64,000 nucleotides of DNA from a virus (Duplodnaviria; Heunggongvirae; Uroviricota; Caudoviricetes): IMG/VR virus record IMGVR_UViG_3300022187_000019; one strand, 5' to 3'. Positions 6,835-61,776 of the stretch are shown piece after piece. Positions within the stretch are counted from its first letter, which is position 1. Each line of letters opens with the position of its first letter. Under the pieces are notes generated by a model, which worked only from the letters and a program-made list of their open reading frames with translations, had not been told where the DNA came from and searched no databases. A program made the position numbers and the translations under genes.

Positions 6835-7401
6835 TCCTCACCCTTTCCGCCATCGTCCGTTGGCGTCCGAGTTATTACTCACCGCAATTCTAACTTGACA
6901 CCAACGACAGTTTCGATTATCTCTCCGCACCCATTCACCCGGCGGAGACGGACCATCACTACCATCTGCTATCGCGACGGCGTCCTCGCTGCCGATACCC
7001 TAATCGCCTATAACACCTACACAAATGGCCACCGGGACAAGATCGCCGAATGCGGCAATTACCTCGTCGCGCTGGCTGGTGCTGTCTGTTACCGGCGCAT
7101 TCTCGAAAAGTGGGTCAAGGACGGTTGTCATAGCGACGAAGTTCCGGCCGACCTTCTCAACAACACCTCCGAATTCTCCGCGCTGCTCGTCGATCGTGTT
7201 TCCGGCCGCGCCTATGAATTCGATGATGGACACCTCGTCCCGATCTATGCCGATTACACCGCAATCGGCTCCGGGACGATGCTGGCCCTCGGTGCGCTGG
7301 CCGCAGGGGCTACCGCCGAAGAGGCCGTCGAAGCAGCCTCGCTGCACGACAAGAACACAGGTGGCCCGGTGACCACCTACGATCTCAACCTCACCAAATA
7401 A
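6832..7401 (+). CDS. HslV/proteasome-type Ntn-hydrolase family peptidase (start uncertain)
   Basis: 189-aa ORF; TTICYRDGVLAADT...GHRDKIAE...LVALAGAV...AIGSG resembles the HslV Thr1 core. Confidence 0.5.
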   Translation: MSSPFPPSSVGVRVITHRNSNLTPTTVSIISPHPFTRRRRTITTICYRDGVLAADTLIAYNTYTNGHRDKIAECGNYLVALAGAVCYRRILEKWVKDGCHSDEVPADLLNNTSEFSALLVDRVSGRAYEFDDGHLVPIYADYTAIGSGTMLALGALAAGATAEEAVEAASLHDKNTGGPVTTYDLNLTK

Positions 7402-7408
7402 GGTCCTC

Positions 7409-10400
7409 ATGGCTCTATACACCAAATTCATCTGCGATCTGTTCGATCGCACGACCGGCGCGATCACCGTTTCCGATGCTGATGGGAACGAGTTCACGAG
7501 CGATGATCTCCTGCAAGTCGGCGCGTGGGCGTCAAATGCCAACGACCCGTGGATCGATCTGGTCACTGACACCGGCGATGCTGTCGGCATCTTCGTCGCG
7601 GGTAATCCCGACGTGGTCGAGCCTCAGCCTTCGTTCGACGTGTCCGGCGGTATGATCTACATGCTCGACGGCGATCCTGTCTCCGGGCAGAAGAGCGGCC
7701 TGCACCTGTGCCCGCTCTCGGTCTTCCTCGATAGCAAGGGCAAGGTCAATCTCGACGGCCTGAACTGGTATCTCCCGCAGGACCTCGACATCCAGACGCC
7801 GGGCACCATGACAAACATCACGCTCATGACCGGCCGCCGCCGCGATGAAGCGCAGGGCAAGTGGAAGGAGGTGTCCAGCACCTTCGGCCAGTTCGAGACG
7901 ATGTTGCAGGATCACAAGGAAGGCCAGAAGGACGGTCCCTGCTTCCTGCAAGGACAGTCCGCGAACGGTGCCCGCAAGGCCGTCGCCATGATCGCCAACC
8001 ACATCCTCGGCGTCGATCTCGACTCCGGTGCGCCGCTCGACGACGTGATGCGGACGATCCAGCAGCATGGTTTGGAGGCGGTGATCTACACCACCCACAG
8101 CCACCTCAAGAACACGTCGGTCATCAAGCGCGACCACTTCATGAAGTGGGCCGAGGCATCCGAGGTCGAAGAGGAAGCGGTCCGCGACTACCTGATCAAG
8201 AAGAAGGGTGTGCTGCCGGCGATCGTCGAGGAACTGACGATTCTGGATGACGCCCACCACTCGGAAGACGGCGTCGTCATCCTCGTCCAGCATAAGCCGA
8301 TGCCGAAGTTCCGTGCGGTATTTCCGCTCAAGGAAGCCTTCGTGTTCGCCAAGCGCGGCGGCTCGCAGAAGGATGCGATCGACGAGTGGAAGGAACGCTA
8401 TGCTGGCTTCTGCACCGCGCTCGATCTCTTCTTCGATGAGAAGTGCGTAGACCCTGCCCGCCTCTTCTACCTGCCCCGCCACGCCTCGAAGGACAAGGCG
8501 TTCGGTTCGTGGGTGGTCTGCGGCGAGCCGCTGGACCTCGACAAGTTCGACCGGGTCAAGATGCGCCGGGGCCGCGACAACAAGCGTAGCGCCGTGGCCA
8601 GCAACGCCTTCACGGCGGCCGGTGGAGCGGATGACGGCGACGAGGACGACGCAAACCGCTACATCACCAGCGGCGGTTTCAACCTCAAGGGCTGGTCGAT
8701 CAAGCACGCCAAGCGCTTCGATGTGCAGGCGATGCTTGAGGATGTGATCGGTGGCGACTTCATCCGCGAAGGCCGGGGTAACAAGGCCGGCGTCCACGTC
8801 GAATGCCCGTTCGAGGCCGAGCACTCCAGCTTCGGCGGCGGCGGCACCTTCGTGGTCAACGCTTCCGACAATCTGGAAGACGGCTATGAAGGCGGCTTCA
8901 CCTTCAACTGCACCCACAACGCCTGCTCCGGCCGCGATCGCCTCGACTACCTCAAGGAACTGATCGAGCAGGAATTGATCACGCCGGCCGACCTCACCAA
9001 CAAGGACTATCTGTTCGAACTGGAGGAGGACGAGGAAGAGGAGGAAGAGCCGGTCAAGCCGAAGAAGCCGACGCCGCGCGCCGACGCCCCTACGACCGAC
9101 GAGGCCGAGGAGCCGGAGTTCGAGGACGACGATCTTGACTTCGGCGATTCCGAGGAAACCATGCTGCGTGCGTTCAACCGGCGCTATGCAGTGATCCGCA
9201 CGTCCGGCGGCGTCAAGATTCTGGTGGAGCCGCGCTCCGCCGATGATGACGTGATCTTCGAAACGCAGGGAGACGTGAAGCTGTTCGAGAAGAACCGCGT
9301 GATCTGGATCGCCGAGGGCAAGCAGTCGAAGAAGCTGGCCGGGTTCGACCTGTGGCTGGAATGGGACAAGCGCCGCACCTACCGTCAGGTGGTGTTCGCT
9401 CCCGGCCGCCGCGTCGCCAAGGACATCTACAACCTGTTCCGTGGCTGGCCGTATGAGCCGGTCCCGACGACGTGGGAGAACATCCTCGACAACAAGGACG
9501 AACCGGTCGCCGGTGACTGGTCGATGCTGCGTGGTCACATCTACGAGAACATCTGCGAGTCGAACGACGAGTATTTCGAGTGGCTGATGACGTGGCTGGC
9601 GATGCTGTTCCAGAAGCCGGAGGCCAAGCCGGGTTCGACGCTGGTCATCACCGGCGGTAAGGGCACGGGTAAGTCCACCCTGTTCGACTTCATCAACAAG
9701 CTGCTTGGCTTCCACGGCATCACCGTGAGCCAGCGGAAGCAGATCGTCGGTCAGTTCAACGGCCACCTTGAAACCGCCCTGCTCATGGTCTGCGAAGAAG
9801 CCTTCTGGGCCGCTGACCCGCAGGCGGAAGGTGTCCTCAAGGACATGATCACCAACAAGTCGGTGCTGATCGAAAAGAAGGGCTATGACCCGATCCAGTC
9901 CGAGAACTACACGCGCCTCGCGCTGATCTCGAACAACGATTGGGTGGTCCCTGCCTCGCTCAAGGACGAACGTCGCTTCTTCGTGCTGCGCTGCTCGGAT
10001 GCCCGCCAAGGCGATCTGGAGTTCTTCGGCCTGATGCGCGAGCAGATGGACAAGAAGGGTGGCCTGCAAGCCATGCTGCACGACCTGCTCCACTGGAAGC
10101 CGGTCAAGGGCACCTTCGCCAGCCTGTTCACGCCGCCCAAGACCGACCACCTCCAGAAGCAGCAGATCGAGACGCTGTCGGGCGTGCAGAAGTTCATGCT
10201 CGAACTGGTCAAGTCCGGCCTTTACGAGACGAGCGACGAGAACCGTTTCCCGTCGATCGAACTGAACGACGATCGCGAGACGATGGTCTACGCCAAGGAC
10301 CTGCGAGCAGCGGTGTCGGATTATGTCCGCTTCTTGTTCTCGTCGGACAAGGCCAAGACCAGCTTCGACGACATCTCGACGGTGGTGGGCGACTGGTTCG

Positions 10401-10567
10401 GCGCTCGGGAGGTCAAGATGAAGCTTGACGGTCAGACCAACCAGAGCCGCGTGTTCATCTTCCCGCCGCTCTCGCAGGTCCGCGCCAACCTCAAGGAAAG
10501 CAAGGGACTCGACATCGAGATCATGTCCGAAGAGGACGTGAAGGCGATGAAGGTCCGGGGCCTTTAA
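7409..10567 (+). CDS. DNA primase / SF3 helicase (D5 / P4-alpha-like, possible prim-pol N-terminus)
   Basis: 1052 aa; Walker A VITGGKGTGKST; acidic linker. Confidence 0.85.
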   Translation: MALYTKFICDLFDRTTGAITVSDADGNEFTSDDLLQVGAWASNANDPWIDLVTDTGDAVGIFVAGNPDVVEPQPSFDVSGGMIYMLDGDPVSGQKSGLHLCPLSVFLDSKGKVNLDGLNWYLPQDLDIQTPGTMTNITLMTGRRRDEAQGKWKEVSSTFGQFETMLQDHKEGQKDGPCFLQGQSANGARKAVAMIANHILGVDLDSGAPLDDVMRTIQQHGLEAVIYTTHSHLKNTSVIKRDHFMKWAEASEVEEEAVRDYLIKKKGVLPAIVEELTILDDAHHSEDGVVILVQHKPMPKFRAVFPLKEAFVFAKRGGSQKDAIDEWKERYAGFCTALDLFFDEKCVDPARLFYLPRHASKDKAFGSWVVCGEPLDLDKFDRVKMRRGRDNKRSAVASNAFTAAGGADDGDEDDANRYITSGGFNLKGWSIKHAKRFDVQAMLEDVIGGDFIREGRGNKAGVHVECPFEAEHSSFGGGGTFVVNASDNLEDGYEGGFTFNCTHNACSGRDRLDYLKELIEQELITPADLTNKDYLFELEEDEEEEEEPVKPKKPTPRADAPTTDEAEEPEFEDDDLDFGDSEETMLRAFNRRYAVIRTSGGVKILVEPRSADDDVIFETQGDVKLFEKNRVIWIAEGKQSKKLAGFDLWLEWDKRRTYRQVVFAPGRRVAKDIYNLFRGWPYEPVPTTWENILDNKDEPVAGDWSMLRGHIYENICESNDEYFEWLMTWLAMLFQKPEAKPGSTLVITGGKGTGKSTLFDFINKLLGFHGITVSQRKQIVGQFNGHLETALLMVCEEAFWAADPQAEGVLKDMITNKSVLIEKKGYDPIQSENYTRLALISNNDWVVPASLKDERRFFVLRCSDARQGDLEFFGLMREQMDKKGGLQAMLHDLLHWKPVKGTFASLFTPPKTDHLQKQQIETLSGVQKFMLELVKSGLYETSDENRFPSIELNDDRETMVYAKDLRAAVSDYVRFLFSSDKAKTSFDDISTVVGDWFGAREVKMKLDGQTNQSRVFIFPPLSQVRANLKESKGLDIEIMSEEDVKAMKVRGL

Positions 10568-22865: not shown

Positions 22866-22906
22866 GACGTGATGGCGCGTGATGATCGACCAAGAGCTAT
22901 TATGAA

Positions 22907-22935
22907 TTGACAGTGATGGTCATTCTGGGTAGACC
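22907..22935 (+). promoter_or_regulatory. promoter TTGACA-17-TAGACC driving a leaderless xis-like gene
   Basis: the -10 element ends 1 nt before the ATG at 22936. Confidence 0.5.
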
Positions 22936-23256
22936 ATGAGCATGACCGACATGACCTCCCTGTGTGCGAAGATCGAGGCCGCTAAAGCCAGCGGCCTCGG
23001 TATCACCCTTGATGATGCCGAATTGAATGGCCTCCTCAGCATGGCCACTCTCCTCGGCACTATCACCCCGGCGCGTGATGCTGATCCCGACGAAATCATT
23101 ACGATCGCGGAAATCTGCGCCAAGCTCAAGATCAGCCGGCAGACGCTTTACCGCTGGCGGCGCGACGGAAAGTTCATGCCTCAGCCAGTGAACGTGCAGG
23201 CGACCCGCTGGCTGCGGAGTGAGTTTTCTCAATGGCTGCGTGAGCGGTCAGCCTGA
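22936..23256 (+). CDS. AlpA/Xis-family excisionase-like DNA-binding protein
   Basis: 106 aa; ISRQTLYRWRRDGKFMP motif; converges on the integrase. Confidence 0.6.
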   Translation: MSMTDMTSLCAKIEAAKASGLGITLDDAELNGLLSMATLLGTITPARDADPDEIITIAEICAKLKISRQTLYRWRRDGKFMPQPVNVQATRWLRSEFSQWLRERSA

Positions 23257-24535
23257 TCGGATCAAGGTGCTCCGCCCAAATGCGGAGCGCCGCCTTCTTC
23301 TCCGCGAAATAGTCGTGGTGATCGTAGTTGCCCCGGACGCCGCCGATGATGTGGTTGATGACCCGCTCGACGATGTCCGACAGGATGAGAGGCTTGTCCT
23401 CGGCATCCCTCAATCCCCGCATACCCGTCGCCAGCGTGCGACGCAGATCGTGGACGGTGAACCGCTCCATGGTCTTCCGCTCCTTCGCCGCCAGCTTCTG
23501 GCAGGTCTCGTTGAGCGCGTTCATGGGCTTCGTGAAGCTGATTAGCTCCTTCGACGTGTCCTCGTCTTCATCGACCGTCTCGCCCTGCCTCCACGAGAAC
23601 GGGGCCGGCCAGACGTATTTGTAATTGCCGGTGAGGCGCTTGCGTTGGCGCAGGATCGCGACCACCGTGTCCGGCATCCACAGCAGCAGGTCCAACCCGT
23701 TCTTGATCCGCTCACCGCTGATCAGAATCGTGTTGTCGTGGAAGCGGACCTCGTCCCATGTCAGACCGGCCGCCTCGCTCCGTCGCAGGCCGGTGTAGAG
23801 GATGACGGTCATCATCTCAGCGAAGGTGTCACGAGCCAAATAGGTTCCTTTGAAGAACACCCCGATCTCGTAATTCGTGAGGTAGCGACGACGCTTGTTC
23901 TCGTCGGCGAGGCTCACCAGATCGATCGCCGGGTTGACGGTCAGACCGGTCACGGCCCGGCCGCGCGAGACGCCCCACTTCCACCAGCGGGCGATGAGCG
24001 CCTTGAGCCGGTTCGACGCCGGCCCCTTCCCTTCCGCAAACTTCTTCTGCACGATCGCCGCCAGATCGTCGTAGGTGATGGTGTCGATCTGCCGCTCACC
24101 CAGCGTCGGTTTGATCTCCCGGTTGTAGGTGGTCCGCTTCTCCTTGGCCGTCTTCCTCGTCTCGCCCTCGGCCGCCATATATTGATCGAACATCCAGTCG
24201 CAGGTGAGGGAGGCGCGCGGGTCGATCGCCGGCTCGGATGACTCCTCGCTGGGCGTTAGGAAGCTCACCGCTCTTCCCTCGACCTTGGCGGTGTTGATCT
24301 CGGTCGCTCGCTCGCGGGCGGCGGACAGGTCCATGCCTCCGGTCTCCAACCACTGACCCAGCGTCACCGTCTTCGGCTCACCGTTCACCTTGCCTTGCCA
24401 TGCCCAAATCTTTCGCCCGGTCGGGTGGACGATCAGGCGGAGGTTGGCCGCCACAGAATCAGTGATCACCTGTTTCTTCGGACCGGGCTTGAGGCCCTTG
24501 ACGAAGGCCGCCGTAAGCTGTTTCTTCATGGACAA
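23174..24535 (-). CDS. int: tyrosine recombinase / phage integrase
   Basis: 453 aa; HDLRRT box; RBS AGGAAG. Confidence 0.9.
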   Translation of the reverse strand: MSMKKQLTAAFVKGLKPGPKKQVITDSVAANLRLIVHPTGRKIWAWQGKVNGEPKTVTLGQWLETGGMDLSAARERATEINTAKVEGRAVSFLTPSEESSEPAIDPRASLTCDWMFDQYMAAEGETRKTAKEKRTTYNREIKPTLGERQIDTITYDDLAAIVQKKFAEGKGPASNRLKALIARWWKWGVSRGRAVTGLTVNPAIDLVSLADENKRRRYLTNYEIGVFFKGTYLARDTFAEMMTVILYTGLRRSEAAGLTWDEVRFHDNTILISGERIKNGLDLLLWMPDTVVAILRQRKRLTGNYKYVWPAPFSWRQGETVDEDEDTSKELISFTKPMNALNETCQKLAAKERKTMERFTVHDLRRTLATGMRGLRDAEDKPLILSDIVERVINHIIGGVRGNYDHHDYFAEKKAALRIWAEHLDPIRLTAHAAIEKTHSAASGSPARSLAEA

Positions 24536-24560
24536 ATCTTCCTGTTTGCAGATCGAGTTT

Positions 24561-24622
24561 CTGACCTACTTCTGACCTACCCGGAGCGCCGCCGCAAGAG
24601 GGCTGACCTACTCCTGACCTAC
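24561..24622 (+). repeat. integrase arm-type site repeats CTGACCTAC (4 copies)
   Basis: copies at 24561, 24572, 24603 and 24614. Confidence 0.55.
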
Positions 24623-24752
24623 TTTTTGTCGTTTCTGGATGAAACAGGATGTCCCACGTTGTTACTAAGAAAGGACCAAAAATGGCGGATTTCCGGGGTT
24701 TTCTTGAGACAGCTTGTCTCGGCGCGTCTCGTCGTGTAACAGGAGTTTGTCA

Positions 24753-24797
24753 CTCTTAATCAGCGGGTCCTAGGTTCGAACCCTAGTGCGTCCACCA
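24753..24797 (+). other. attP core: 3' fragment of tRNA-Lys(CTT)
   Basis: anticodon loop CTCTTAA + 3' stem TCAGC + variable loop GGGTC + T-arm CTAGGTTCGAACCCTAG + acceptor TGCGTCC-A-CCA; no 5' half upstream. Confidence 0.6.
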
Positions 24798-24826
24798 TTT
24801 TCTCCCTTGTAAATCAAGGGTTTATA

Positions 24827-24860
24827 GCCCCGCCCTAACCGGCGGGGCTTTTCGTTTCTT
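24827..24860 (+). terminator. rho-independent terminator after att core
   Basis: GCCCCGCC-CTAACC-GGCGGGGC followed by TTTTCGTTTCTT. Confidence 0.6.
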
Positions 24861-24864
24861 GGCG

Positions 24865-25029
24865 CTGACCTACTTTCTGACCTACTTTTCCTTGGCTCAC
24901 GGTGTTACGCCATGGGTCAAGATGGGTCTTATGGGGGAAATTCAGCGGCTCGCGAATCACAAAACAAAACACCCGCCGGCCTTTCGGACGACGGGTGAGG
25001 TGGAGACAACGGTAGGTCAGCGGTAGGTC
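24865..25029. repeat. further CTGACCTAC arm-type repeats (2 direct, 2 inverted)
   Basis: direct at 24865 and 24877; inverted GTAGGTCAG at 25011 and 25021. Confidence 0.5.
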
Positions 25030-25321
25030 AGGCGGCCTTGGCCTCCTCGAAGGTCATCGGATCGTGAAGGCCGAGGGTGGTGCCGGGCGGGATAGCAATC
25101 CAAGCATGGGCACCGCAGGCGAGCCGGTCGGCGCTGAACACGCAGCGCGAGGGACCATCGACGGAGACCTCGCGGGCATAGATCGGTGTCGAGTTCGGGC
25201 CGTTGGGCTTGAGGGTGTAGACGGGGCGGTTGCCTCCGTCCTTGGCGTTCATGGCGATGAACTGGCGGTTGACGTGGAGGATGGCACCTAGCGGGCCGGG
25301 TGAGAGCAATTCGAAGCTCAT
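25028..25321 (-). CDS. hypothetical protein
   Basis: 97 aa. Confidence 0.45.
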   Translation of the reverse strand: MSFELLSPGPLGAILHVNRQFIAMNAKDGGNRPVYTLKPNGPNSTPIYAREVSVDGPSRCVFSADRLACGAHAWIAIPPGTTLGLHDPMTFEEAKAA

Positions 25322-36016: not shown

Positions 36017-36072
36017 GTTGCTTCCTTTGCGGTGAATGTGATGGCTAATCGCCGCGTGATGTGCGGAGAATA

Positions 36073-36100
36073 AAAAGCCCCGGAGATTGCTCTCCGGGGC
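36073..36100 (-). terminator. rho-independent terminator
   Basis: GCCCCGGAGA-TTGC-TCTCCGGGGC preceded by A5 on the + strand. Confidence 0.65.
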
Positions 36101-36127
36101 TACTCGTTGACGCGGCGAGTGATGCGG

Positions 36128-54183: not shown

Positions 54184-55532
54184 CTACGAATCAGACGCCG
54201 CCTGCCGGTGGGCGCGCGCTTCCCGATCCGAATAGGACCGGCGCACATATTTGGCCCGGCGGGCGGCGAGCTTCTGCTCCGGCGTCGGGTTGATGATCTG
54301 CACGCGCTTGGCCTTCTCGATCGCGATCTCCTCCGGTGTCAGGAACCGGCGCTCTGGCGCGTTCGCCCGGCGGCGCGCGAGGTCAGCCATCTCCTCTTCA
54401 TAGAGGCGGTCGCGTTCCTCTTGGGCGCGGGCGGCTTCGATCGCTTCCAGTTCCTCGCGGCGCTCGCGGTTCGCCTTCTCTTCCGGCGTCTCCACCAGCG
54501 CGCGGGCCAGCCGCACCGAGAAGGGCGCGAGGTCGGCATATTCGTTTGCCGCTTCTTTTGCACTGTCGAGTCGGGTGTAGGACTTGTATCCGCGCCCGTC
54601 GCGCACATATGCACAGACCCGCGTGTCGAACAGCGAATAGGGCCGGCCGTCGTGGATGGCGGGCGTCAGGTGAACCTCAACATGATCGACCCGGTAGTGG
54701 GTGATCCCTTCCATCGGCAGCTTGGGTTCCGGCGCTTGCTCGTAAAAGAACTTGGCCTCCCGTTCCGCGTCGATCCACGTCGGATAGATATAGGCCACGC
54801 CGTCTTCATCCGAGGCGGCCGAATAGACGCCCCGGTCATAGTGCGTGATGAGGTAGCTCCCCATCAGGTGCGGAAGGTCGCCGGTCTGGTTGTTCCCGGT
54901 GCGCGCCCGGCGGCCACGAGCAGGAGCCGTGTTCGAGACGCAGCGCCAGACCTGTGCGATCGGGTTGGAAAGCTCCGGCTCGATGCGGAAGCGATCAACC
55001 AGCGCGGTCAAGGACACGGGCGGATGCTCGATCGGCGCGGGCGGCTGGGGTTTCGGCTTGGGTCCGCGCTTCTTCGGTTCGGGCGGTTTGGGCTTCGGTC
55101 CCGGCTTCTGCGGCTTGGGTGCATTCTTGCTGCCCACCGGCCGGCCACGCTTGCGAGGGGGCACAGGGTCTAAGTTCTGGATGCCGGCGGCATTGTTGGC
55201 CTCAACACCTTCATAGCTGGCCAACCATTTGCGGACGGCAGGATCAGCGGCGATCGCGTCCTTGGTCGCCCGGCGCATGAAGCGCACGGCCTTGTCATAC
55301 TCGTTGAAGCCGCGAACGCGCTTGGGACCACCAGCGACCGGGCGCTTGTTGTAGGTGCGCGCGTGAATCCAGAAGCGGATGGGGCCGTCGTGCTCCATCA
55401 CATAGAAGATGCCCGTGGTGATCATCACGCGCTCGTTGGGTAGCGCACCGGAGCGGCTGGTGAAGGGCACATCAGGGACGGCGGCGGGCGTCTGCGAGTC
55501 GGCAGCGTCAGTATGGCTGGTTGGTGTGGTCA
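54184..55532 (-). CDS. hypothetical protein with basic PKPKP-repeat linker
   Basis: about 449 aa if started at MTTPTSH (ATG also at 55551); promoter TTGACA at 55568-55573 (− strand). Confidence 0.55.
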
Positions 55533-55704
55533 TTCTCACATGATGGTGCATCACGCGATAATTGTCAACGATCCAAAATGTTAGAAAAAGTGGTGGAAGG
55601 TGAAAGCGACGGATTTCCAAGGGTTTCAGGGGCCGCCGGGTGTCTTTTTATTTTTTATTGGACATTTTGTCGGGATATTCGGGTGTCATTTTGACGTGAC
55701 GGCC

Positions 55705-55865
55705 ATGATGGCGTGATGATCGTGATGGCGTGATGATCGTGATGCCGAGGAGGCGTGATGGAGGGGATCGAGATGGCGTGATGGGCGTGATGGCGGGGTG
55801 GGTTTTTGCGATTTGGGCGTGATGGAGAGGTAATTAGAGGAGGTGATAAGGGACGAGTGATGGTG
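55705..55865 (+). repeat. array of about 10 GCGTGATGG direct repeats
   Basis: GGCGTGATG recurring every 9-25 bp in the divergent intergenic region. Confidence 0.6.
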
Positions 55866-56019
55866 TAGAAATGGCTGTTTTCTGCGGGTTACAGCGATTT
55901 TACCGGGCTTTTTTGAGCCGCCACCAACTTTTACGTTTCGTTTTTATTCAGCCCAGCCACGAATTAGGTCTGCCCTGATCGCCCCGTTCTGACCGGTGAG
56001 GCCCTATGCGAAGGTTCTT

Positions 56020-56090
56020 GGTTATATACTTTATTATTAAAAATATATAAATATATAATATAGTAGGGAACCTTCCGTAAACGACGGCGG
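56020..56090. other. AT-rich tract (TATATA / AAATATATAA)
   Basis: sharp GC drop in a 62%-GC genome. Confidence 0.5.
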
Positions 56091-56228
56091 ATTACCGTGG
56101 GTTAGCGGTCCAACCAGTTTTATTAGATTTTTCAGTAATTTTTACAAACCTCCCTGACCGCCATTTTCCCTTGACATTGGGTATCTTCTGGCTGACCATA
56201 GGCCCTCAAGCCACGGAGTTCCCTATCA

Positions 56229-56570
56229 ATGCTCACCCACGGGTATCGGCTGGTCTACAACGCGAAGACCGCCCCGACCGACTACATCCCCTCTCTCATC
56301 GCGATCGACGAACATCAACTCGGTCCGAACGCCAAAGACCTCTATTTCGAGAGCGTCGAGCTTCCCAAGCACACGATCACCTCGATCAGCTATTCGCGCT
56401 GGGTCAGCTATGACAGCACACCTTCCCTCACCCGCGATCCGATCGTTGGTATCAAGGCAGGCGCGCTGAGCTACTATGTTCCCTACTCGGAACTGGTCGC
56501 CCTGCTCGACGACGCAGATTGCGACCCGGTCACTGCCGCGATGATCCGCGCGCTGGGTTCCAACACATGA
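56229..56570 (+). CDS. hypothetical protein, first gene of the + strand operon
   Basis: 113 aa; upstream TTGACA promoter (56172) and GGAG RBS. Confidence 0.5.
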   Translation: MLTHGYRLVYNAKTAPTDYIPSLIAIDEHQLGPNAKDLYFESVELPKHTITSISYSRWVSYDSTPSLTRDPIVGIKAGALSYYVPYSELVALLDDADCDPVTAAMIRALGSNT

Positions 56571-57579: not shown

Positions 57580-58094
57580 CCGGGGCACTCGCGGTCCTCG
57601 ATCTCCAAGATTTCCAGCTTCACCTCTGGGACACCCCCACTCTGATCGTCAAGGTCGGGGACAAAGAACGCAAGCGCTGCGACGTGGATGGCTACGTCGC
57701 GGCGTTTTCGCATTTCCCGCTCGACTACTGCACGATCGAAAACGTGCAATCGACGCCGAACGATGGTCATGTCGGCGCGTTCACCTTCGGTAAGGTTACT
57801 GGCATCGCCCTCGGCATCGCCGCCGGCCTCGACATCCCCATGGCTTCGGTCGCCCCGGCCAAGTGGAAGATGCACATGCAGTGCCCGGCCGACAAGGAGC
57901 AGACCAAGCACCGCGCTTCGCTCCTCTTCCCGAATTGCACCGCCGGCTGGTCCCGCAAGATGGATCATGGCCGGGCCGAGTCCGCTCTGATCGCCCTCTA
58001 TTCCGCGATCCTGTTGGGCCACCAGCCCACCCAACCCTTCCACCTCGGTCTCATCAACGGGACCCTCCCCAAGAGAAAAGGGGCACCCAAGTAA
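57546..58094 (+). CDS. ruvC: RuvC-like Holliday-junction resolvase
   Basis: 182 aa; MRFIGGIDPGLTGALAVLD. Confidence 0.75.
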   Translation: MRFIGGIDPGLTGALAVLDLQDFQLHLWDTPTLIVKVGDKERKRCDVDGYVAAFSHFPLDYCTIENVQSTPNDGHVGAFTFGKVTGIALGIAAGLDIPMASVAPAKWKMHMQCPADKEQTKHRASLLFPNCTAGWSRKMDHGRAESALIALYSAILLGHQPTQPFHLGLINGTLPKRKGAPK

Positions 58095-58633
58095 TGGCCC
58101 AAACCTACCTGAACAAGAAGCAGGAGCTTTTCGCCAAGTTCCTCGCCGAAGGCTGCACGCAGCTAGATGCCTACACCAACGCTGGATACGAGCCATCAAG
58201 CTCGAACGCCAGCACCCTCGCCAGCCAGCCGCTCGTGAAACAACGGGTGGAAGAATTGCGTGCGGAGATCGAGCGCAAAAGCGTGGAGTTCGACATTCTC
58301 CGAAAGCAAGCCGCAGGCAGTCCCGAAAGCGCTGTCGAAGTGGCTGCTTGGACCTTCCAACGTGTCATGGACATGATGGCTTCCAATGTGAAGTTCGCTC
58401 AGGCGGCCGGCGAATACAAGGCCGCCAATGAATGCCTCAAGATGATGGGCGATGCCCTCAAAATGTTCGAGAAAGCACAAGCAGATGCAACTAGCGGAAA
58501 GCAAGCGGGACCGCAAAACACGCTTGCACTCATCGGTCAAGTCACTCAAGTCCTTGCAGACGCGAGTGGAGGAAGCAGTCCGCAAGCAGACAACCCTCTC
58601 GCCCCACGACTACCAAGCACTTCGGACGCTTAG
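58094..58633 (+). CDS. terS: terminase small subunit
   Basis: N-terminal HTH-like YLNKKQELFAKFLAEG. Confidence 0.65.
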   Translation: MAQTYLNKKQELFAKFLAEGCTQLDAYTNAGYEPSSSNASTLASQPLVKQRVEELRAEIERKSVEFDILRKQAAGSPESAVEVAAWTFQRVMDMMASNVKFAQAAGEYKAANECLKMMGDALKMFEKAQADATSGKQAGPQNTLALIGQVTQVLADASGGSSPQADNPLAPRLPSTSDA

Positions 58634-60215
58634 TCAGTCCGACGATCTCGACACGCAGCTAACCACGCTCGATAAGACGATCGACTTCGCCGAGGCCGAA
58701 CTGGACGAAGTCTGGATCGAACTGGCGCGCGAGAGCTACCACGATTTCTATGAGTTCATGCAGCGCGAGAATGGTTACACCATGTCGCCGCACCAGAAAC
58801 TCATCGGAGACTTGCTCATGTCCTCCGCTTCCAAGGAGACCATGCGCTTCATGCTGTCCATGCCTCCGGGGCACTGTAAATCGACCCACTCGTCGCACCA
58901 CTTCCCTGCGTGGTGGTTCGGCAAGTTCGGATCGAAGCAGAAGTTCCTGCAAGCCGGGCACAGTCAGGACTTCGTCGCCAAGGAAATCGGTGCAACCGTT
59001 CGCCAGATCATCGCGTCTGAGGATTACCAGCGCGTCTTCCCCGACATCAAGATCAAGCACGACATGCGCGCCATGGACTATTGGGCACTGACCAATGGTA
59101 AGGGCAAATATGTCGGCAAGGGTGTCGGACAGGGTATCTCCGGCTTCCGTGGTCACTACGGTATGGTGGACGATCCCTACAAGAGCCGCAAGGACGCTGA
59201 AAGCCCGACGATCCGCGACACCGCGTTCAAATGGTATTCAGACGACTTCTCCACGCGCCTTCTGCCGGGTTCCCCGCTGGGCATTATTATGACCCGCTGG
59301 CACTCTGACGACCTCTGCGGACGCATCTCAGATCGCGAAGAACGGGAAAAAAGAGAAGAGCAAGAAAAAATAGAAAAAGATTTTGCGGACCAACTCATTG
59401 ATTCTCTTGAGGAAAAAGAGGGAAAACGCAAAAAATACCGCTTTGAAATTATTAATCTCCCCGCCATCGCCGAAGAAGACAACGATATTCTAGGCCGGGC
59501 GTCCGGCGAAGCATTGTGGCCAGAGGTTTACGACCTCGACGCATTGGAAAATCTCAGAAGCGATATGACTTCCGCGTCGTGGAACTCGCTGTATCAGGGC
59601 ACGCCTATGGACGTGAGCGGCGGCGCGGTCGATGCTGAATGGTTCCAGCGCTACACCCATCCGCCGGCCAAGGCCGATCCTGAGAAGGGAACGCAGAACC
59701 AGATTCGTCGCACCGTGGTTTCGGTTGACGCCGCGAACACGGACAAGGAGCGAAGCGACTACACCGTCATCACGGTCTGGATCGAAGACCTCAAACGGAA
59801 CCATTATCTGGTGGACGTGATCCGCAAGCGAATGGAACTGGTCGAACTGTCGTCCGAGATCGCCCGCGTGGTGAAGCGCTACGACGCCGACGCCCTGCTG
59901 GTCGAAGCCAAGGGCAACGGTCTGGCCTATTGCCAGTTGAAGGCGAATGGTGGTGCTCCTACCGCGCTGATCCCAATCGAGGTGGGCACCGCGAGCAAGT
60001 CGTTCCGTTTCGACGAAGTGACGCCGATGTTCGAGGCCGGGCAGGTCTACCTGCCGGAAAGCGCCAAGTGGCTTGCCGATTATGAGAAGGAACTCGTGGC
60101 CTTCCCTAACGGCAAGAATGACGACCAAGTGGACGCCACCTCGCAATATCTGAAATGGGCCAAGCAGAAGGCCCGTCGCGGGACGAAGAAGATGACCGGC
60201 GCTGGCCACCGCTGA
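58452..60215 (+). CDS. terL: terminase large subunit (start uncertain)
   Basis: Walker A SMPPGHCKS, Walker B GMVDDP, nuclease motifs; first in-frame ATG lies 182 nt inside terS. Confidence 0.8.
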   Translation: MPSKCSRKHKQMQLAESKRDRKTRLHSSVKSLKSLQTRVEEAVRKQTTLSPHDYQALRTLSQSDDLDTQLTTLDKTIDFAEAELDEVWIELARESYHDFYEFMQRENGYTMSPHQKLIGDLLMSSASKETMRFMLSMPPGHCKSTHSSHHFPAWWFGKFGSKQKFLQAGHSQDFVAKEIGATVRQIIASEDYQRVFPDIKIKHDMRAMDYWALTNGKGKYVGKGVGQGISGFRGHYGMVDDPYKSRKDAESPTIRDTAFKWYSDDFSTRLLPGSPLGIIMTRWHSDDLCGRISDREEREKREEQEKIEKDFADQLIDSLEEKEGKRKKYRFEIINLPAIAEEDNDILGRASGEALWPEVYDLDALENLRSDMTSASWNSLYQGTPMDVSGGAVDAEWFQRYTHPPAKADPEKGTQNQIRRTVVSVDAANTDKERSDYTVITVWIEDLKRNHYLVDVIRKRMELVELSSEIARVVKRYDADALLVEAKGNGLAYCQLKANGGAPTALIPIEVGTASKSFRFDEVTPMFEAGQVYLPESAKWLADYEKELVAFPNGKNDDQVDATSQYLKWAKQKARRGTKKMTGAGHR

Positions 60216-60234
60216 GCCGGTCATCCAATCAAAA

Positions 60235-60289
60235 ATTATGGATCGAGGCCATTTTGCCTTGCGGTTATTATGGATCGAGGTCATTTTGA
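60235..60289 (+). repeat. 2 copies of ATTATGGATCGAGG(C/T)CATTTTG
   Basis: same 22-mer family as the 61304-61487 array. Confidence 0.6.
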
Positions 60290-60368
60290 TGCTCCCGTTC
60301 GGGAACATTAGCGTAAAAACCGCCCGAATCTGACCGAAATGACCCCGTTCGGGAACATTCGGGCGGTC

Positions 60369-60488
60369 GTTAACCTTAACGAAATCGCTCCCGGCGTTAA
60401 CCTTAACAGAAATGCCGGCCGCGTTAACCTTAACGAAACCTTCCAATCCGTTAACCTTAACAAATCCCCTCCCCGCGTTAACCTTAAC
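60369..60488 (+). repeat. 5 phased copies of GTTAACCTTAAC (27-bp period)
   Basis: copies at 60369, 60396, 60423, 60450 and 60477. Confidence 0.7.
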
Positions 60489-61303
60489 AAAAGGCCCGCC
60501 ATGCTCTCGTCCGCCAGCCTGCATCCGCACCGTCCCGCCGATCAGGGGGACCCCGACGAACGACATCCGGCCGACGGTCCCCACGACACAGACTAGGGGA
60601 CCCTCCCCCTCAGAGCAAGGGCCGGGGACCCCTTTTCTCCAGACCTCTGGGACCCTCCCCGTCAGGACATAGGCCGGGGTGTTGGATTTCGATTTTCCAT
60701 CACTCCTTCCACCCATATCTCCACCATTTCCGGGCAGCACGCCCCCCTCCCACCTCCATCACATCCTCCAGCCGCCTCCACAAATCGCCCTGAGAAGCCT
60801 CGGGAAGCGATCGACGACCCATGTCCGGCGTCCCGGATCGTCCCCTTGAGGCCGCGCCGCGCCGGTAATGTTGCACCGACTAAAGTCACACAATCTGTAG
60901 ATTGGAATATTAGAAGGGAAAATGGCAGTTTTCTGCGGGTTTGAAGGGGCAAAGTCGAAAAAAGATTTTGTGATTTTACAGCCTAATGTTGTAAAAGATG
61001 GTTCGTCAAATCGGACCCCGGCCGGGTCGGCTCCACCACCAATGTCAAGTGAAACTGTCGGTGTAATGTCGAAAAACGGACATTTGGCGACATAAGGCCG
61101 GGAAATTGACCCCTCAGAGGGTAAAATGGCGGATTTGACCCGTTTTCTGGTGCTTCGACCGCCATTCTGGCTTTACAGTGCCCGTCTGGAGGCCCCTCAG
61201 AGCCGTTCTAAGCGCCGTGGAGCCTCAACAGGTCCTCCCGGTGCCTTCTGGGGCCTCCTGACGCCCTGTGGCGCTCCCTGAGCCTCCCACGGGCCTTCCC
61301 ATG

Positions 61304-61487
61304 TCATGGATCGAGGTCATTTTGCTGGGTGATCGCCCGCGACCGCTCCGAAGTCATGGATCGAAGTCATTTTGCAAAATTATGGACCGAGGCCATTTTG
61401 CATCTGCTATTATGGATCGAGGTCATTTTGCGATTCTATGGACCGAGGCCATTTTGCGCCGGGAGTTATGGACGAAGGTCATTTTGC
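61304..61487 (+). repeat. 6 iteron-like copies of (T)ATGGA(T/C)CGAGG(T/C)CATTTTGC
   Basis: copies near 61304, 61353, 61379, 61408, 61435 and 61466. Confidence 0.7.
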
Positions 61488-61567
61488 ATCTGATTTTGAA
61501 AACCGCGCCCGCGATCGTCGCCGCGCGCCCAGCCGATGGTTAACGCGCGCGAAACCGCGCCGGCCGG

Positions 61568-61751
61568 GTAAGGTTAACGAAATCGACCGATCCGTTAAGG
61601 TTAACGACTTAGTTAGTGTTAACGGTTCGTTAAGGTTAACAAAATCCACCACTTCGTTAAGGTTAACGCCGGAGCCGTTAAGGTTAACGCGGCGTTAAGG
61701 TTAACGACTTCCTCCATCTGTTAAGGTTAACGCCCAGCCCCAGCCCGTTAA
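61568..61751 (+). repeat. 7-8 copies of GTTAAGGTTAAC (inverse orientation of the 60369 array) plus GTTAAC half-sites
   Basis: copies at 61568, 61594, 61629, 61656, 61677, 61694 and 61720; half-sites at 61539, 61618 and 61746. Confidence 0.7.
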
Positions 61752-61776
61752 CCATTTGCGCGGTGGAATTAGTGCT

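What the first reader, a model, noticed from the sequence alone, without database searches (positions are those of the whole stretch)
55690..56228. Divergent switch region: ~10x GCGTGATGG repeat array, an AT-rich TATATA tract, then TTGACA promoter for the terminase operon
This is the only place where the long − strand block and the terminase-containing + strand operon diverge. About ten direct GTGATG(G) repeats (55705-55865) look like binding sites for a multimeric regulator. The 70-bp AT-rich island (56020-56090) is a striking GC drop that could be a DNA-unwinding element or UP element. It is an origin-like or late-activator architecture.
Basis: seen in the sequence. Interest (0 to 1): 0.55.

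Follow-up and report, generated by a model that had tools for sequence, protein, structure and literature searches.

The report
Conserved repeat array beside AT island
A 700-base gene-free stretch between two oppositely read gene blocks of a large sphingomonad phage holds about a dozen close-packed copies of one short DNA word and the only AT-rich island in the sequence. Both are kept in every relative examined, so they are real protein-docking signals, probably for gene timing and perhaps for starting DNA replication, but the protein that reads them is unknown.

Summary
Thirteen same-strand sites (SGTGATGR; nine with exact GTGATG) lie at 55695-55863. An 87.5% AT island lies at 56020-56067 and is unique in the window. 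A TTGACA promoter lies at 56172. The window is a Lacusarx/XM05-like siphophage with a long terminal repeat.

The layout (array, about 160 bp, AT island, about 100 bp, promoter, packaging operon) recurs in six further phages, down to 53% TerL identity.
- Site spacing follows an 8-bp lattice, not the 10.5-bp helical repeat.
- A second, inverted array lies upstream of phoH, near the inferred right boundary of the terminal repeat, in Lacusarx, XM05 and L02.
- Array and AT island are separable. phiCbK has the AT tract but no array, and array B has no island. The island is bracketed by a different 18-bp repeat.

Best reading (about 0.4): the array is a platform coated by a compact sequence-specific protein, like the omega, MetJ or ParG repeat arrays, controlling operon heads. 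The AT island with its 18-mers is a separate candidate unwinding element. Rivals are iteron origin, terminase signal, Chi-like barrier and RNA motif. No binding protein was identified.

The parts
54184..55533 (-). gpX, first gene of the leftward block (449 aa). It belongs to an orphan family and carries a canonical AT-hook (PRKRGRPVGSKN).
   Evidence: ORF. No Pfam, PHROG or NCBIfam family. Homologues sit next to the array in L007, Lacusarx and XM05, with 3 genes between in L02. Only 14 relatives among 1.84 billion representative proteins. The RGRP core is present in the window clade, L007 and XM05, with a weak match to the HMG-I/Y AT-hook peptide 2ezd (E 0.87, not significant).
55540..55568 (-). 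Leftward sigma-70-type promoter-like site, TTGACA-17-CATCAT. It ends 7 bp before the gpX ATG, so the mRNA would be leaderless or nearly so.
   Evidence: 10 of 12 matches. Equivalent TTGACA or TTGCAA sites were read in L005, XM05, Lacusarx and L02. No transcription start was mapped.
55548..55555 (-). One inverted copy of the motif (CGTGATGC on the - strand) inside the spacer of the leftward promoter.
   Evidence: One to three inverted copies lie left of the array in XM05, Lacusarx, L02 and L007, but not at a fixed distance from the promoter. The copy is absent at this spot in L005.
55608..55625 (+). Copy a of the 18-bp repeat GGCGGATTTCYGNGGGTT ('site2').
   Evidence: (family D5). Identical in L005.
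55637..55680 (.). T-rich tract (gtgtctttttattttttattggacattttgtcgggatatt), identical in L005.
   Evidence: segment 55601-55694 is 89% identical.
55695..55863 (+). Array A: 13 same-orientation sites, consensus GGCGTGATGR. Spacings are 9, 8, 9, 8, 9, 16, 15, 8, 9, 32, 24 and 14 bp.
55873..55890 (+). Copy b of the 18-bp site2 repeat, just right of the array.
   Evidence: (D7). The homologous copy is inverted in L007, as expected of a protein site rather than an RNA.
55950..55967 (.). Conserved block GCCnGTGAATTrGG, about 70 bp left of the island.
   Evidence: Alignment A2 of six phages.
56011..56075 (.). 8-bp inverted repeat GAAGGTTC / GAACCTTC (56011-56018 and 56068-56075) that brackets the AT island.
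   Evidence: I3. Relatives have only 4-5 bp equivalents, and L005 has an uncompensated mismatch. A conserved hairpin is therefore not supported.
56020..56067 (.). AT island, 87.5% AT, unique in the window. Its right end is TATAAT-rich.
   Evidence: It is also the only such island in all of Lacusarx (130 kb) and in the 150 kb of XM05 examined. It is 99% identical to L005, while the flanks are 64% and 74%.
56086..56103 (+). Copy c of the 18-bp site2 repeat, 19 bp right of the island.
   Evidence: In Lacusarx the only two copies in 130 kb lie one on each side of the island.
56172..56203 (+). Rightward promoter: TTGACA, 12 bp, then CTGGCTGACCATAGG. It resembles the alphaproteobacterial housekeeping type (TTGAC...GCTA).
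   Evidence: TTGA and CT.GCT are invariant columns in six phages. The simple E. coli-type scan did not flag it because the -10 differs.
56229..56570 (+). First gene of the packaging operon (113 aa, no known family).
58094..60215 (+). TerS (58094-58633) and TerL (58452-60215), the end of the operon headed by this region.

Best explanation
The 700-bp gap is the main cis-acting control region of a CbK/Lacusarx-like siphophage. It holds two separable elements between two divergent host-type promoters.

(1) The GTGATG array is a landing platform for a compact, sequence-specific DNA-binding protein. One protein unit binds per roughly 8 bp, and neighbouring units touch. Together they would coat 110-170 bp as a spiral around fairly straight DNA, as the ribbon-helix-helix proteins omega (pSM19035), MetJ and ParG do on their 7-8 bp repeats. 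The same word, inverted, forms a second array at the head of the phoH-portal-capsid operon. The protein would therefore act at operon heads. Most likely it holds the late packaging and structural operons, and the leftward block, under temporal control by repression or insulation. It could double as a centromere-like handle.

(2) The AT island with its flanking 18-bp repeats is a distinct, older element, because phiCbK also has an AT tract there. It is the best candidate for the unwinding site of a replication origin. That origin would be served by the phage's P4-alpha/D5-type primase-helicase.

Shown: the sites, their lattice, their conservation, the second array and the separability.
Inferred: that a protein coats them, which protein it is, the direction of control, and origin function.
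For: Conservation:
- Array, AT island and promoter recur in the same order in L005, XM05, Lacusarx, L02, L007 and RXM.
- Motif cores are better conserved than spacers against L005 (71/80 against 69/93, P 0.019).

8-bp lattice:
- 67 adjacent spacings from 10 arrays cluster at 8-9, 15-17, 23-25 and 32 bp.
- The best period is 7.9-8.2 bp (Rayleigh R 0.58, against 0.26 at 10.5 bp). None of 2000 random sets reached this under either null.
- The same lattice holds in the arrays of Lacusarx and L007, which have different spacer sequences.

Second array at an operon head:
- Lacusarx has 6 CATCACG at record 17-183, then 3 GTGATG.
- XM05 has 4 + 3 between phoH and the small-gene block.
- L02 has 3.
- Each lies 10-60 bp downstream of a promoter-like GCTAACCAT element.

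Orientation rule:
- Read along the nearest operon (gpX block for A, phoH operon for B), both arrays read CATCAC, then the gene.
- An intergenic pair of sites sits directly upstream of a TTGACC-17-TATTCG promoter at 22.87-22.91 kb.

Known analogue:
- pSM19035 parS/operators are 7-10 consecutive WATCACW heptads in direct and inverted order. They occur at several promoters, and each heptad binds one RHH dimer in a left-handed spiral (PMC9499535). The core ATCAC is shared.

Separability of array and island.

Island as a selected element:
- It is unique per genome.
- It is 99% identical to L005 within 64-74% flanks.
- It is bracketed by 18-mers that occur only twice in the 130-kb Lacusarx genome.
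- The window encodes a 1052-aa DUF5906 (SF3-type) primase-helicase with a weak P4-family match.
Against: - No candidate binding protein was found. Pfam found no RHH, Arc, MetJ, ParG or HTH regulator among 77 small predicted proteins of the window. The window holds less than half of a genome of the relatives' size (130-152 kb).
- Array A is 127 bp upstream of the leftward -35 and about 310 bp upstream of the rightward -35. That is not a classical operator position.
- Thirteen sites is more than simple repression needs.
- Gaps of 16-32 bp break the contiguity that omega requires.
- The promoters are consensus matches only. No transcription start is known.
- The window, L005 and XM05 arrays are related, so the lattice statistic overcounts independent evidence.
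- The lattice could partly reflect origin by slippage of a 17-bp unit.
- The motif is also about twofold enriched in coding DNA genome-wide. A pure operator model does not explain this.
- Origin function of the island is untested, and the primase gene lies 45 kb away.
Confidence: 0.4

Rival explanations
1. One integrated iteron-type origin. GTGATG sites bind the initiator (gpX or the primase-helicase). The AT island 155-175 bp away melts. Inverted copies near the gpX promoter autoregulate the initiator. Array B is a second origin or a handcuffing/control locus, as ori and crr are in satellite phage P4, which uses 8-bp repeats (author's knowledge, not checked in the library).
For: - The order AT-rich, direct repeats, inverted copies, promoter, adjacent conserved gene is the textbook iteron-replicon layout.
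- The array-to-island distance is roughly constant (about 155-175 bp) in six phages.
- gpX has an AT-hook and sits beside the array in most relatives.
- The phage has an SF3/P4-alpha-like primase-helicase. As general knowledge, such initiator helicases typically read short repeats.
- Related CbK-like phages persist as replicating episomes whose origin is unknown (PMC12195562).
Against: - Array and island are separable: phiCbK has the AT tract without the array, and array B has no island.
- In RXM they lie 390 bp apart with other repeats between them.
- The island is bracketed by a different repeat.
- Sites are 7-10 bp on an 8-bp lattice, not 17-22 bp iterons in helical phase.
- There are no DnaA boxes.
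- The inverted copies are not at a fixed position relative to the promoter, and the one in the promoter spacer is missing in L005.
- gpX has no detectable initiator domain, and its structure model is unusable (pLDDT 41).
- GC skew is uninformative.
Confidence: 0.2
2. A packaging signal. The small terminase (TerS) oligomer binds the arrays. Array A marks the head of the packaging operon, and array B marks the right end of the long terminal repeat. Both would guide the start or end of genome cutting.
For: - Array A always precedes the TerS/TerL operon.
- Array B lies in the intergenic region that, by homology with the mapped phiCbK terminus, holds the right boundary of the terminal repeat. The GGGACCCAAAGG and CGTTAACC motifs are shared with that terminus.
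- The TerS N-terminal helix-turn-helix (AGYxPSxxNASTLAxxP) is nearly invariant in all six motif-bearing phages aligned. It differs in phiCbK, which lacks the motif, and in DSS3P8, whose repeats read GGTGAC.
- As general knowledge, P1 and SPP1 pac sites are arrays of 6-7 bp repeats.
Against: - Array A is about 4.5 kb from the inferred left boundary of the repeat, just after TerL (PMC5648845; PMC3556154; contig L004 ends near 60716).
- That boundary region has its own dense repeat families (GTTAACCTTAAC, GGGGACCC, ATGGAyCGAGGyCATTTTGC) and no GTGATG.
- The GTTAAC and GGGACCC families, not GTGATG, are the ones found near both termini.
- An 8-bp spacing does not suit wrapping DNA around a ring, which needs contacts every 10-11 bp.
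Confidence: 0.1
3. A polar barrier read from the genome ends. It could be a cluster of Chi-like sites that tames the host AddAB nuclease, a replication-fork barrier, or a T5-style injection stop. Seen from the nearer end of the linear genome, both arrays present the same polarity.
For: - Arrays A and B are inverted relative to each other. They bracket the packaging operon plus the terminal repeat.
- CGTGATG is the most frequent 7-mer on the + strand of the window (48 against 11).
- It is about twofold above synonymous-codon expectation in three genomes, ranking 33-46 of 5,000-10,000 7-mers.
- The motif is G/T-rich, like the Caulobacter Chi GCGGTGGT. A 15-copy array of that Chi blocks AddAB in vivo (PMC5443536).
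- phiCbK carries that Chi at about 0.47 per kb, close to the density of GCGTGATG here.
Against: - GCGTGATG is not over-represented in 50 kb of a sphingomonad replicon, N. aromaticivorans pNL2: 3 copies, rank 4424. This is a proxy only, not the host chromosome.
- phiCbK has no Chi arrays at the equivalent places.
- About half of the strand bias is explained by amino-acid and codon content, and many other 7-mers deviate more.
- The arrays lie 10-15 kb inside the ends, so essential genes would be lost before the barrier is reached.
Confidence: 0.06
4. An RNA-level signal. The arrays are transcribed as CAUCACG repeats in long leaders of the leftward block and of the phoH operon. They would bind an RNA-binding protein as a sponge or as a translation or antitermination control.
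For: - Both arrays read CAUCAC in the sense of the nearest downstream operon.
- Array B follows a promoter-like element, so it would lie in a 5' leader.
- Sense-strand enrichment extends through the - block.
- Relatives are annotated with RNA-binding proteins.
Against: - No promoter was found to the right of array A that would transcribe it leftward.
- There is no Rfam match.
- Inverted copies accompany both arrays, which suits duplex DNA recognition.
- The companion 18-mer flips orientation in L007.
Confidence: 0.05

Closest known systems
Omega (ParB of pSM19035) heptad arrays, serving as operator and centromere
   Same: Both have 7-10 short non-palindromic repeats per site. The core ATCAC is shared (WATCACW against CATCACG). 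Both mix direct and inverted copies and have several arrays per replicon at gene heads. A register shorter than a helical turn implies a protein spiral around the DNA (PMC9499535).
   Different: The register here is about 8 bp, not 7. Gaps of 16-32 bp are tolerated, whereas omega needs at least four contiguous heptads. Array A does not overlap a promoter. No RHH protein or ParA partner was identified. The host replicon is a large lytic-type phage, not a plasmid.
MetJ metbox and ParG (TP228) 8-bp repeat operators (author's knowledge)
   Same: Both use tandem 8-bp units, each bound by one ribbon-helix-helix dimer. Cooperative contacts link neighbours, and natural arrays mix good and degenerate boxes.
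   Different: Those arrays have 2-5 (MetJ) or about 12 (ParG) units centred on a promoter. The sequences are unrelated. Membership cannot be claimed without the protein.
PICI/SaPI and satellite P4 origins served by Pri-Rep (SF3) initiators
   Same: Short repeats flank an AT-rich melting site (PMC6092414). A P4-alpha/D5-like primase-helicase is encoded. P4 uses 8-bp repeats in two clusters, ori and crr (author's knowledge).
   Different: Here the repeats that flank the AT island are the 18-mers, not the GTGATG sites. The helicase gene is 45 kb away rather than adjacent. Autonomous replication is untested.
Iteron origins of lambda and of plasmids (P1, F, RK2, pSC101)
   Same: Both have direct repeats near an AT-rich tract, and inverted copies near the promoter of the adjacent gene.
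   Different: Iterons are 17-22 bp and usually spaced in helical phase next to the AT tract, often with DnaA boxes. Here the cores are 7-10 bp on an 8-bp lattice, 155 bp from the island, with no DnaA boxes.
Repeat-rich end regions of long-terminal-repeat phages, such as the T5 injection-stop region, T7 short-repeat arrays and the P1 pac hexamers (author's knowledge)
   Same: These are arrays of 6-7 bp repeats near terminal-repeat boundaries or terminase genes. P1 pac has two repeat sets flanking a cut site.
   Different: Array A is not at a genome end. The inferred ends carry other repeat families.

Membership tests
Omega/RHH-type repeat operator-centromere | Runs of at least 4 contiguous short non-palindromic repeats, one protein dimer per repeat | tested here: met
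   55695-55745 holds six sites at 9, 8, 9, 8 and 9 bp. XM05 has six consecutive sites at 8-9 bp. The overall lattice is 7.9-8.2 bp.
Omega/RHH-type repeat operator-centromere | Strict 7-bp register without gaps | tested here: not met
   The register is about 8 bp, and gaps of 16, 24 and 32 bp are common.
Omega/RHH-type repeat operator-centromere | Arrays overlap the promoters they control | tested here: inconclusive
   Array B starts 10-60 bp after a promoter-like element. Array A lies 127 bp and about 310 bp from the two -35 boxes. Promoters are predicted only.
Omega/RHH-type repeat operator-centromere | A ribbon-helix-helix binding protein (and, for partition, a ParA ATPase) encoded by the replicon | tested here: inconclusive
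   No RHH, Arc, MetJ or ParG domain was found among 77 small proteins of the window. Less than half of a genome of the relatives' size is in the window, and short RHH domains are easily missed. ParA was not searched for.
Iteron-type replication origin | 17-22 bp direct repeats in helical phase beside the AT-rich unwinding element | tested here: not met
   The core is 7-10 bp. The period is 8 bp, with R of only 0.26 at 10.5 bp. The island is 155 bp away.
Iteron-type replication origin | Host initiator or architectural sites (DnaA boxes, IHF) | tested here: not met
   No TTATCCACA or TGATCCACA box (one mismatch allowed) is conserved. There is one isolated IHF match in XM05 only.
Iteron-type replication origin | Replication starts here (copy-number peak, autonomous replication) | not testable with these tools
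   This needs reads from infected cells or a plasmid assay. GC skew follows gene orientation and is uninformative.
PICI/P4-type origin with Pri-Rep initiator | Two sets of repeats flanking an AT-rich site | tested here: met
   Met for the 18-mer GGCGGATTTCYGNGGGTT (55873 and 56086). In Lacusarx the only two copies in 130 kb flank the island. Not met for GTGATG, which lies on one side only.
PICI/P4-type origin with Pri-Rep initiator | SF3 primase-helicase gene next to the origin | tested here: inconclusive
   A DUF5906 primase-helicase is present (E 2e-22), and its TIGR01613 P4-family match is below cut-off (22.5 against 108.7 bits). The gene is at 7409-10567, 45 kb away.
Terminase recognition site (pac/cos) | Lies at a physical genome end, or the motif is shared by both ends | tested here: not met
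   Array A is about 4.5 kb from the inferred left boundary. No GTGATG occurs in 60215-61776, which has other repeats. Array B is near the inferred right boundary. The ends are inferred by homology, not mapped.
Chi (AddAB/RecBCD regulatory sequence) | Strong over-representation in the host genome | tested here: not met
   There are 3 copies of GCGTGATG in 50 kb of N. aromaticivorans pNL2, rank 4424 of 15966 8-mers. This is a proxy replicon. The true host chromosome was not available.
Chi (AddAB/RecBCD regulatory sequence) | Active orientation towards the nearest DNA end | tested here: met
   GTGATG is on the 3'-ending strand as seen from the nearer end at both arrays, assuming E. coli/B. subtilis polarity.

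The most novel reading that the evidence does not exclude
The region is a plasmid-like maintenance module in a 'lytic' giant siphophage. The origin would be the AT island with its bracketing 18-mers, fired by a P4-alpha-type primase-helicase. The omega-like arrays, which bracket the packaging operon and terminal repeat, would serve as centromere and global operator. Such a module would let Lacusarx/CbK-type phages persist as replicating, partitioned episomes with late genes silenced. It would be the missing cis element behind the episomal pseudolysogeny reported for Dolichocephalovirinae.
Probability: 0.12. Interest if true: 0.75.

Novelty: new variant of a known kind. Interest (0 to 1): 0.5.

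Why it matters
Lacusarx, XM05, L02, RXM and the phiCbK-like phages are abundant, large alphaproteobacterial siphophages. The papers on these phages read here describe no origin or gene-timing switch, nor these repeats. This analysis gives a defined, testable cis-element set shared by the sphingomonad clade, listed below.

- A 13-site array on an 8-bp lattice.
- A partner array at the head of the structural operon.
- A genome-unique AT island with bracketing 18-mers.

If the array is a regulator platform, it points to the protein that separates early from late expression. If the island is the origin, it supplies the sequence that Mohammadi and Ely postulated for episomal persistence of related phages. 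Either way it gives a handle for engineering these phages. It also serves as a marker for recognising the clade in metagenomes.

Tried and rejected
- **Viral-collection scan** for three spaced GTGATG.
- **Genome-collection scan** for three spaced CGTGATG. It returned perfect 7-, 9- and 15-bp microsatellites from unrelated taxa. A sphingomonad megaplasmid was used as a proxy.
- **Rfam search on the region.** Nothing was found.
- **Terminator scan.** None was found.
- **gpX.** It has no Pfam, PHROG, NCBIfam or PDB relatives. Only close homologues turned up in the 5.8-billion-protein search, and only 14 in the representative library, none with a domain. The AlphaFold model from four near-identical sequences is unusable (pLDDT 41), so no fold search was run.
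- **The 113-aa first operon protein.** It has no family and no PDB match.
- **GC-skew peak as evidence for an origin or terminus.** Rejected, because skew tracks gene strand in all blocks.
- **Hairpin around the AT island.** Rejected, because the stems are not conserved and one mismatch is uncompensated.
- **Sigma-54 reading of the 18-mer.** Rejected, because the GG-to-GC spacing is 9, not 10 (read directly from the sequence).
- **Mini-cluster at 2053-2113.** It is coding (GTIT peptide repeats conserved in Lacusarx), not regulatory.
- **Literature searches.** Searches for the motif, for the Caulobacter Chi word and for the P4 octamer mostly returned primer lists.
- **DSS3P8 roseophage.** It has only a weak GGTGAC cluster and a mild AT-rich tract. 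This is suggestive, not counted as evidence.
Full report
**What the window is.** The 64-kb window is 60% GC. It starts with 13 tRNA genes and holds a long block of small leftward genes (about 13-55.5 kb). A rightward operon then ends in RuvC, TerS and TerL. Its nearest named relatives are four phages:
- Erythrobacter phage XM05 (TerL 76% identical);
- Sphingobium phage Lacusarx (72%);
- Erythrobacter phage vB_EliS-L02 (66%);
- Citromicrobium phage RXM (53%).

The Caulobacter phiCbK group and the DSS3P8 roseophages are further out. Two uncultured relatives came from IMG/VR: L005, whose first operon protein is 90% identical, and L007 at 49%. Lacusarx has a terminal repeat of about 10.5 kb that starts just after the terminase genes (PMC5648845). 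In phiCbK the left end was mapped inside terL and the right end in an intergenic gap 10.3 kb downstream (PMC3556154).

**The observation.** It holds.
- *Array.* CGTGATG occurs eight times on one strand in 113 bp, where 0.07 is expected (P about 1e-14). With one mismatch allowed there are 13 sites, all in the same orientation, between 55695 and 55863.
- *AT island.* It spans 56020-56067 (48 bp, 87.5% AT).
- *Rightward promoter.* TTGACA at 56172, followed by GCTGACCATAGG, is a conserved promoter-like block.
- *Leftward promoter.* A TTGACA-17-CATCAT site abuts the first leftward gene.

**Conservation.** The homologous gaps of XM05, Lacusarx, L02, L005, L007 and RXM all show the same order:
- one to three inverted CATCAC copies on the left (none in L005);
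- 7-13 direct GTGATG sites;
- a spacer of about 155-175 bp (390 bp in RXM);
- a 40-50 bp AT island;
- about 100 bp;
- then TTGAC...GCTaAC-CATAGG and the operon.

The flanking proteins are only 35-50% identical, and the spacer DNA does not align. Against L005, the island with its flanks is 99% identical (67/68), while the neighbouring segments are 64% and 74%. Within the array, the cores are conserved 71/80 against 69/93 for spacers (P 0.019). These are selected sites.

**New anatomy 1: an 8-bp lattice.** Adjacent spacings pooled from ten arrays fall at 8-9, 15-17, 23-25 and 32 bp. The best period is 7.9-8.2 bp (Rayleigh R 0.58). None of 2000 random sets reached this under either of two nulls. 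The helical repeat of 10.5 bp gives only 0.26. The window, L005 and XM05 arrays are related, so they are not independent. However, Lacusarx (16, 17, 15, 17, 14), L007 (16, 17, 17) and the second Lacusarx array (32, 24, 32, 32, 41) obey the same register. Units every 8 bp cannot all face one side of the helix. The geometry fits small dimers spiralling around the DNA. That is what omega does on WATCACW heptads in pSM19035 (PMC9499535). MetJ and ParG do the same on 8-bp boxes (author's knowledge).

**New anatomy 2: a second array.** In the whole Lacusarx genome, dense GTGATG clusters occur at only two places: the homologue of this array, and record positions 17-183. The second place holds six CATCACG copies in the opposite orientation, followed by three GTGATG inside the start of phoH. 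XM05 has the same arrangement (4 + 3 copies) between phoH and a 19-kb block of small genes. L02 has three copies.

This gap also carries GGGACCCAAAGG and CGTTAACC motifs. In phiCbK these motifs lie 20-50 bp from the mapped right terminus. Array B is therefore at or next to the right boundary of the terminal repeat, by inference. On a concatemer, the two arrays face each other across the packaging operon plus the repeat. Read along the nearest operon, both arrays read CATCAC and then the gene. Array B follows a promoter-like GCTAACCAT element by 10-60 bp.

**New anatomy 3: array and island are separable.**
- phiCbK has a 250-bp AT-rich tract upstream of its packaging operon but no GTGATG sites.
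- Array B has no island. XM05 has only a 17-bp AT patch there.
- The island is bracketed by a different 18-mer, GGCGGATTTCYGNGGGTT, at 55873 and 56086, with a third copy at 55608.
- In Lacusarx the only two copies of this 18-mer in 130 kb lie one on each side of the island. The left copy is inverted in L007.

It suggests two modules.

**Candidate readers.**
- *gpX (54184-55533).* It sits next to the array in the window clade, L007, Lacusarx and XM05. It has a canonical AT-hook and belongs to a family of only 14 representatives with no known domain. Its structure model failed.
- *TerS.* Its helix-turn-helix is almost invariant in the six motif-bearing phages aligned and differs in phiCbK.
- *Small proteins.* No RHH or HTH regulator was detected among the window's small proteins.
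- *Primase-helicase.* The phage encodes an SF3-type, DUF5906 primase-helicase with a weak P4-family signal.

None of this identifies the binder.

**Weighing the explanations.**
- *Regulator platform.* This reading best fits the 8-bp lattice, the recurrence at a second operon head, the consistent orientation relative to operons, and the intergenic pair of sites just upstream of a TTGACC promoter at 22.9 kb. Its weak points are the distance of array A from both promoters and the missing protein.
- *Integrated iteron origin.* It fits the order of elements and the roughly constant array-to-island distance. It does not fit the separability, the site geometry or the absence of DnaA boxes.
- *Terminase signal.* The inferred left end, after TerL, has its own repeat families and no GTGATG. 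Array A lies 4.5 kb from it.
- *Chi-like barrier.* The mirror symmetry of the arrays and a genome-wide excess suggested this. CGTGATG is the commonest 7-mer on the + strand and about twofold above synonymous-shuffle expectation in three genomes. However, many 7-mers deviate more. The word is not enriched in a sphingomonad megaplasmid. phiCbK, whose host Chi is known (GCGGTGGT; PMC5443536), carries that Chi dispersed and not in arrays.
- *RNA reading.* It lacks a promoter for array A and any Rfam support.

**Verdict.** The feature is real, conserved across the clade, and not described in the papers on these phages that were read. It works most like the short-repeat operator/centromere arrays of RHH proteins. 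Membership in that family is not shown: the register and contiguity differ, and no such protein was found. The AT island with its 18-mers is a reasonable origin candidate of the type 'repeats flanking an AT-rich site' (PMC6092414). Related CbK-like phages persist as replicating episomes with an unknown origin (PMC12195562). That makes the combined 'origin plus centromere/operator' reading worth testing. Confidence in the leading explanation is about 0.4.

Noticed in passing
window 60215-61776: A 1.5-kb gene-free stretch after TerL is packed with other repeats. There are 2 + 7 copies of ATGGAyCGAGGyCATTTTGC. There are 5 copies of CGTTAACCTTAAC at 27-bp spacing (+ strand, 60368-60490) and 4 copies of GGGGACCC (60547-60650). 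About 10 inverted GTTAAGGTTAAC copies lie at 61538-61750. This is probably the left boundary of the long terminal repeat and the packaging start. IMG/VR contig L004 ends near 60716. XM05 and Lacusarx have an equivalent 1.5-kb gap.
   Followed up: partly
window 24559-25031 (beside gene 23174-24535): CTGACCTAC occurs six times on the + strand and twice on the - strand. The copies surround a sequence that looks like the 3' half of a tRNA (ggttcgaaccctagtgcgtccacca), next to a tyrosine-recombinase-like gene. This is an attP-like layout in a phage group described as virulent.
   Followed up: no
whole window; also Lacusarx and XM05 genomes: CGTGATG is the single most frequent 7-mer on the + strand (48 against 11). 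CATCACG in coding sense is about twofold above synonymous-codon-shuffle expectation in all three genomes, ranking 33-46 of 5,000-10,000. Amino-acid and codon content explains part of this, but not all of it.
   Followed up: partly
window 24684 and 60924: Two further copies of the 18-mer GGCGGATTTCYGNGGGTT, the repeat that brackets the AT island, lie in the other two large gene-free regions (attP-like and post-TerL). All five copies in the window are on the + strand.
   Followed up: no
window 22869-22913 and 36038-36119: Two small intergenic clusters of CATCAC (in the sense of the - genes) were seen. One sits directly upstream of a TTGACC-17-TATTCG promoter-like site. The other lies between a terminator hairpin and the next start codon.
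   Followed up: partly
window 2053-2113; Lacusarx 71801-71861: Three CATCAC copies here are coding. They arise from repeated Gly-Thr-Ile-Thr peptides in a Gp80-like fibre protein that is conserved in Lacusarx. This shows that some clusters come from protein sequence alone.
   Followed up: yes
window 54184-55533: The orphan protein gpX carries an AT-hook (PRKRGRPVGSKNAPK) almost identical to that of eukaryotic HMGA, followed by a Pro/Lys-rich linker. It is encoded about 500 bp from the window's only AT-rich island.
   Followed up: partly
L014 (phiCbK 199.6-200.3 kb) and L014/L015 generally: phiCbK has a 250-bp AT-rich tract with two 27-bp repeats upstream of its packaging operon. It also carries the Caulobacter Chi word GCGGTGGT 11 times in 23 kb, far above chance.
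   Followed up: partly
window 7409-10567: This 1052-aa primase-helicase has a DUF5906 (SF3-type) NTPase domain and a sub-threshold match to the P4-family primase C-terminal domain. It is annotated 'DNA primase' in XM05.
   Followed up: partly
window 3-1564: Thirteen tRNA genes sit in one tight cluster at the window start, matching the end of the 24-tRNA cluster of Lacusarx.
   Followed up: no
L258/L259 (vB_EliS-L02 record ends): The last 95 bases or so of the deposited L02 record repeat its first 95 bases. This looks like an untrimmed circular-assembly overlap rather than a biological terminal repeat.
   Followed up: no
L260 2100-2802 (Roseobacter phage DSS3P8): The divergent gap before the DSS3P8 packaging operon has 4-6 GGTGAC/GTGAC copies, including a 21-bp tandem duplication, and a mildly AT-rich tract in the same order. 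This hints that the layout is older than the sphingomonad clade.
   Followed up: partly
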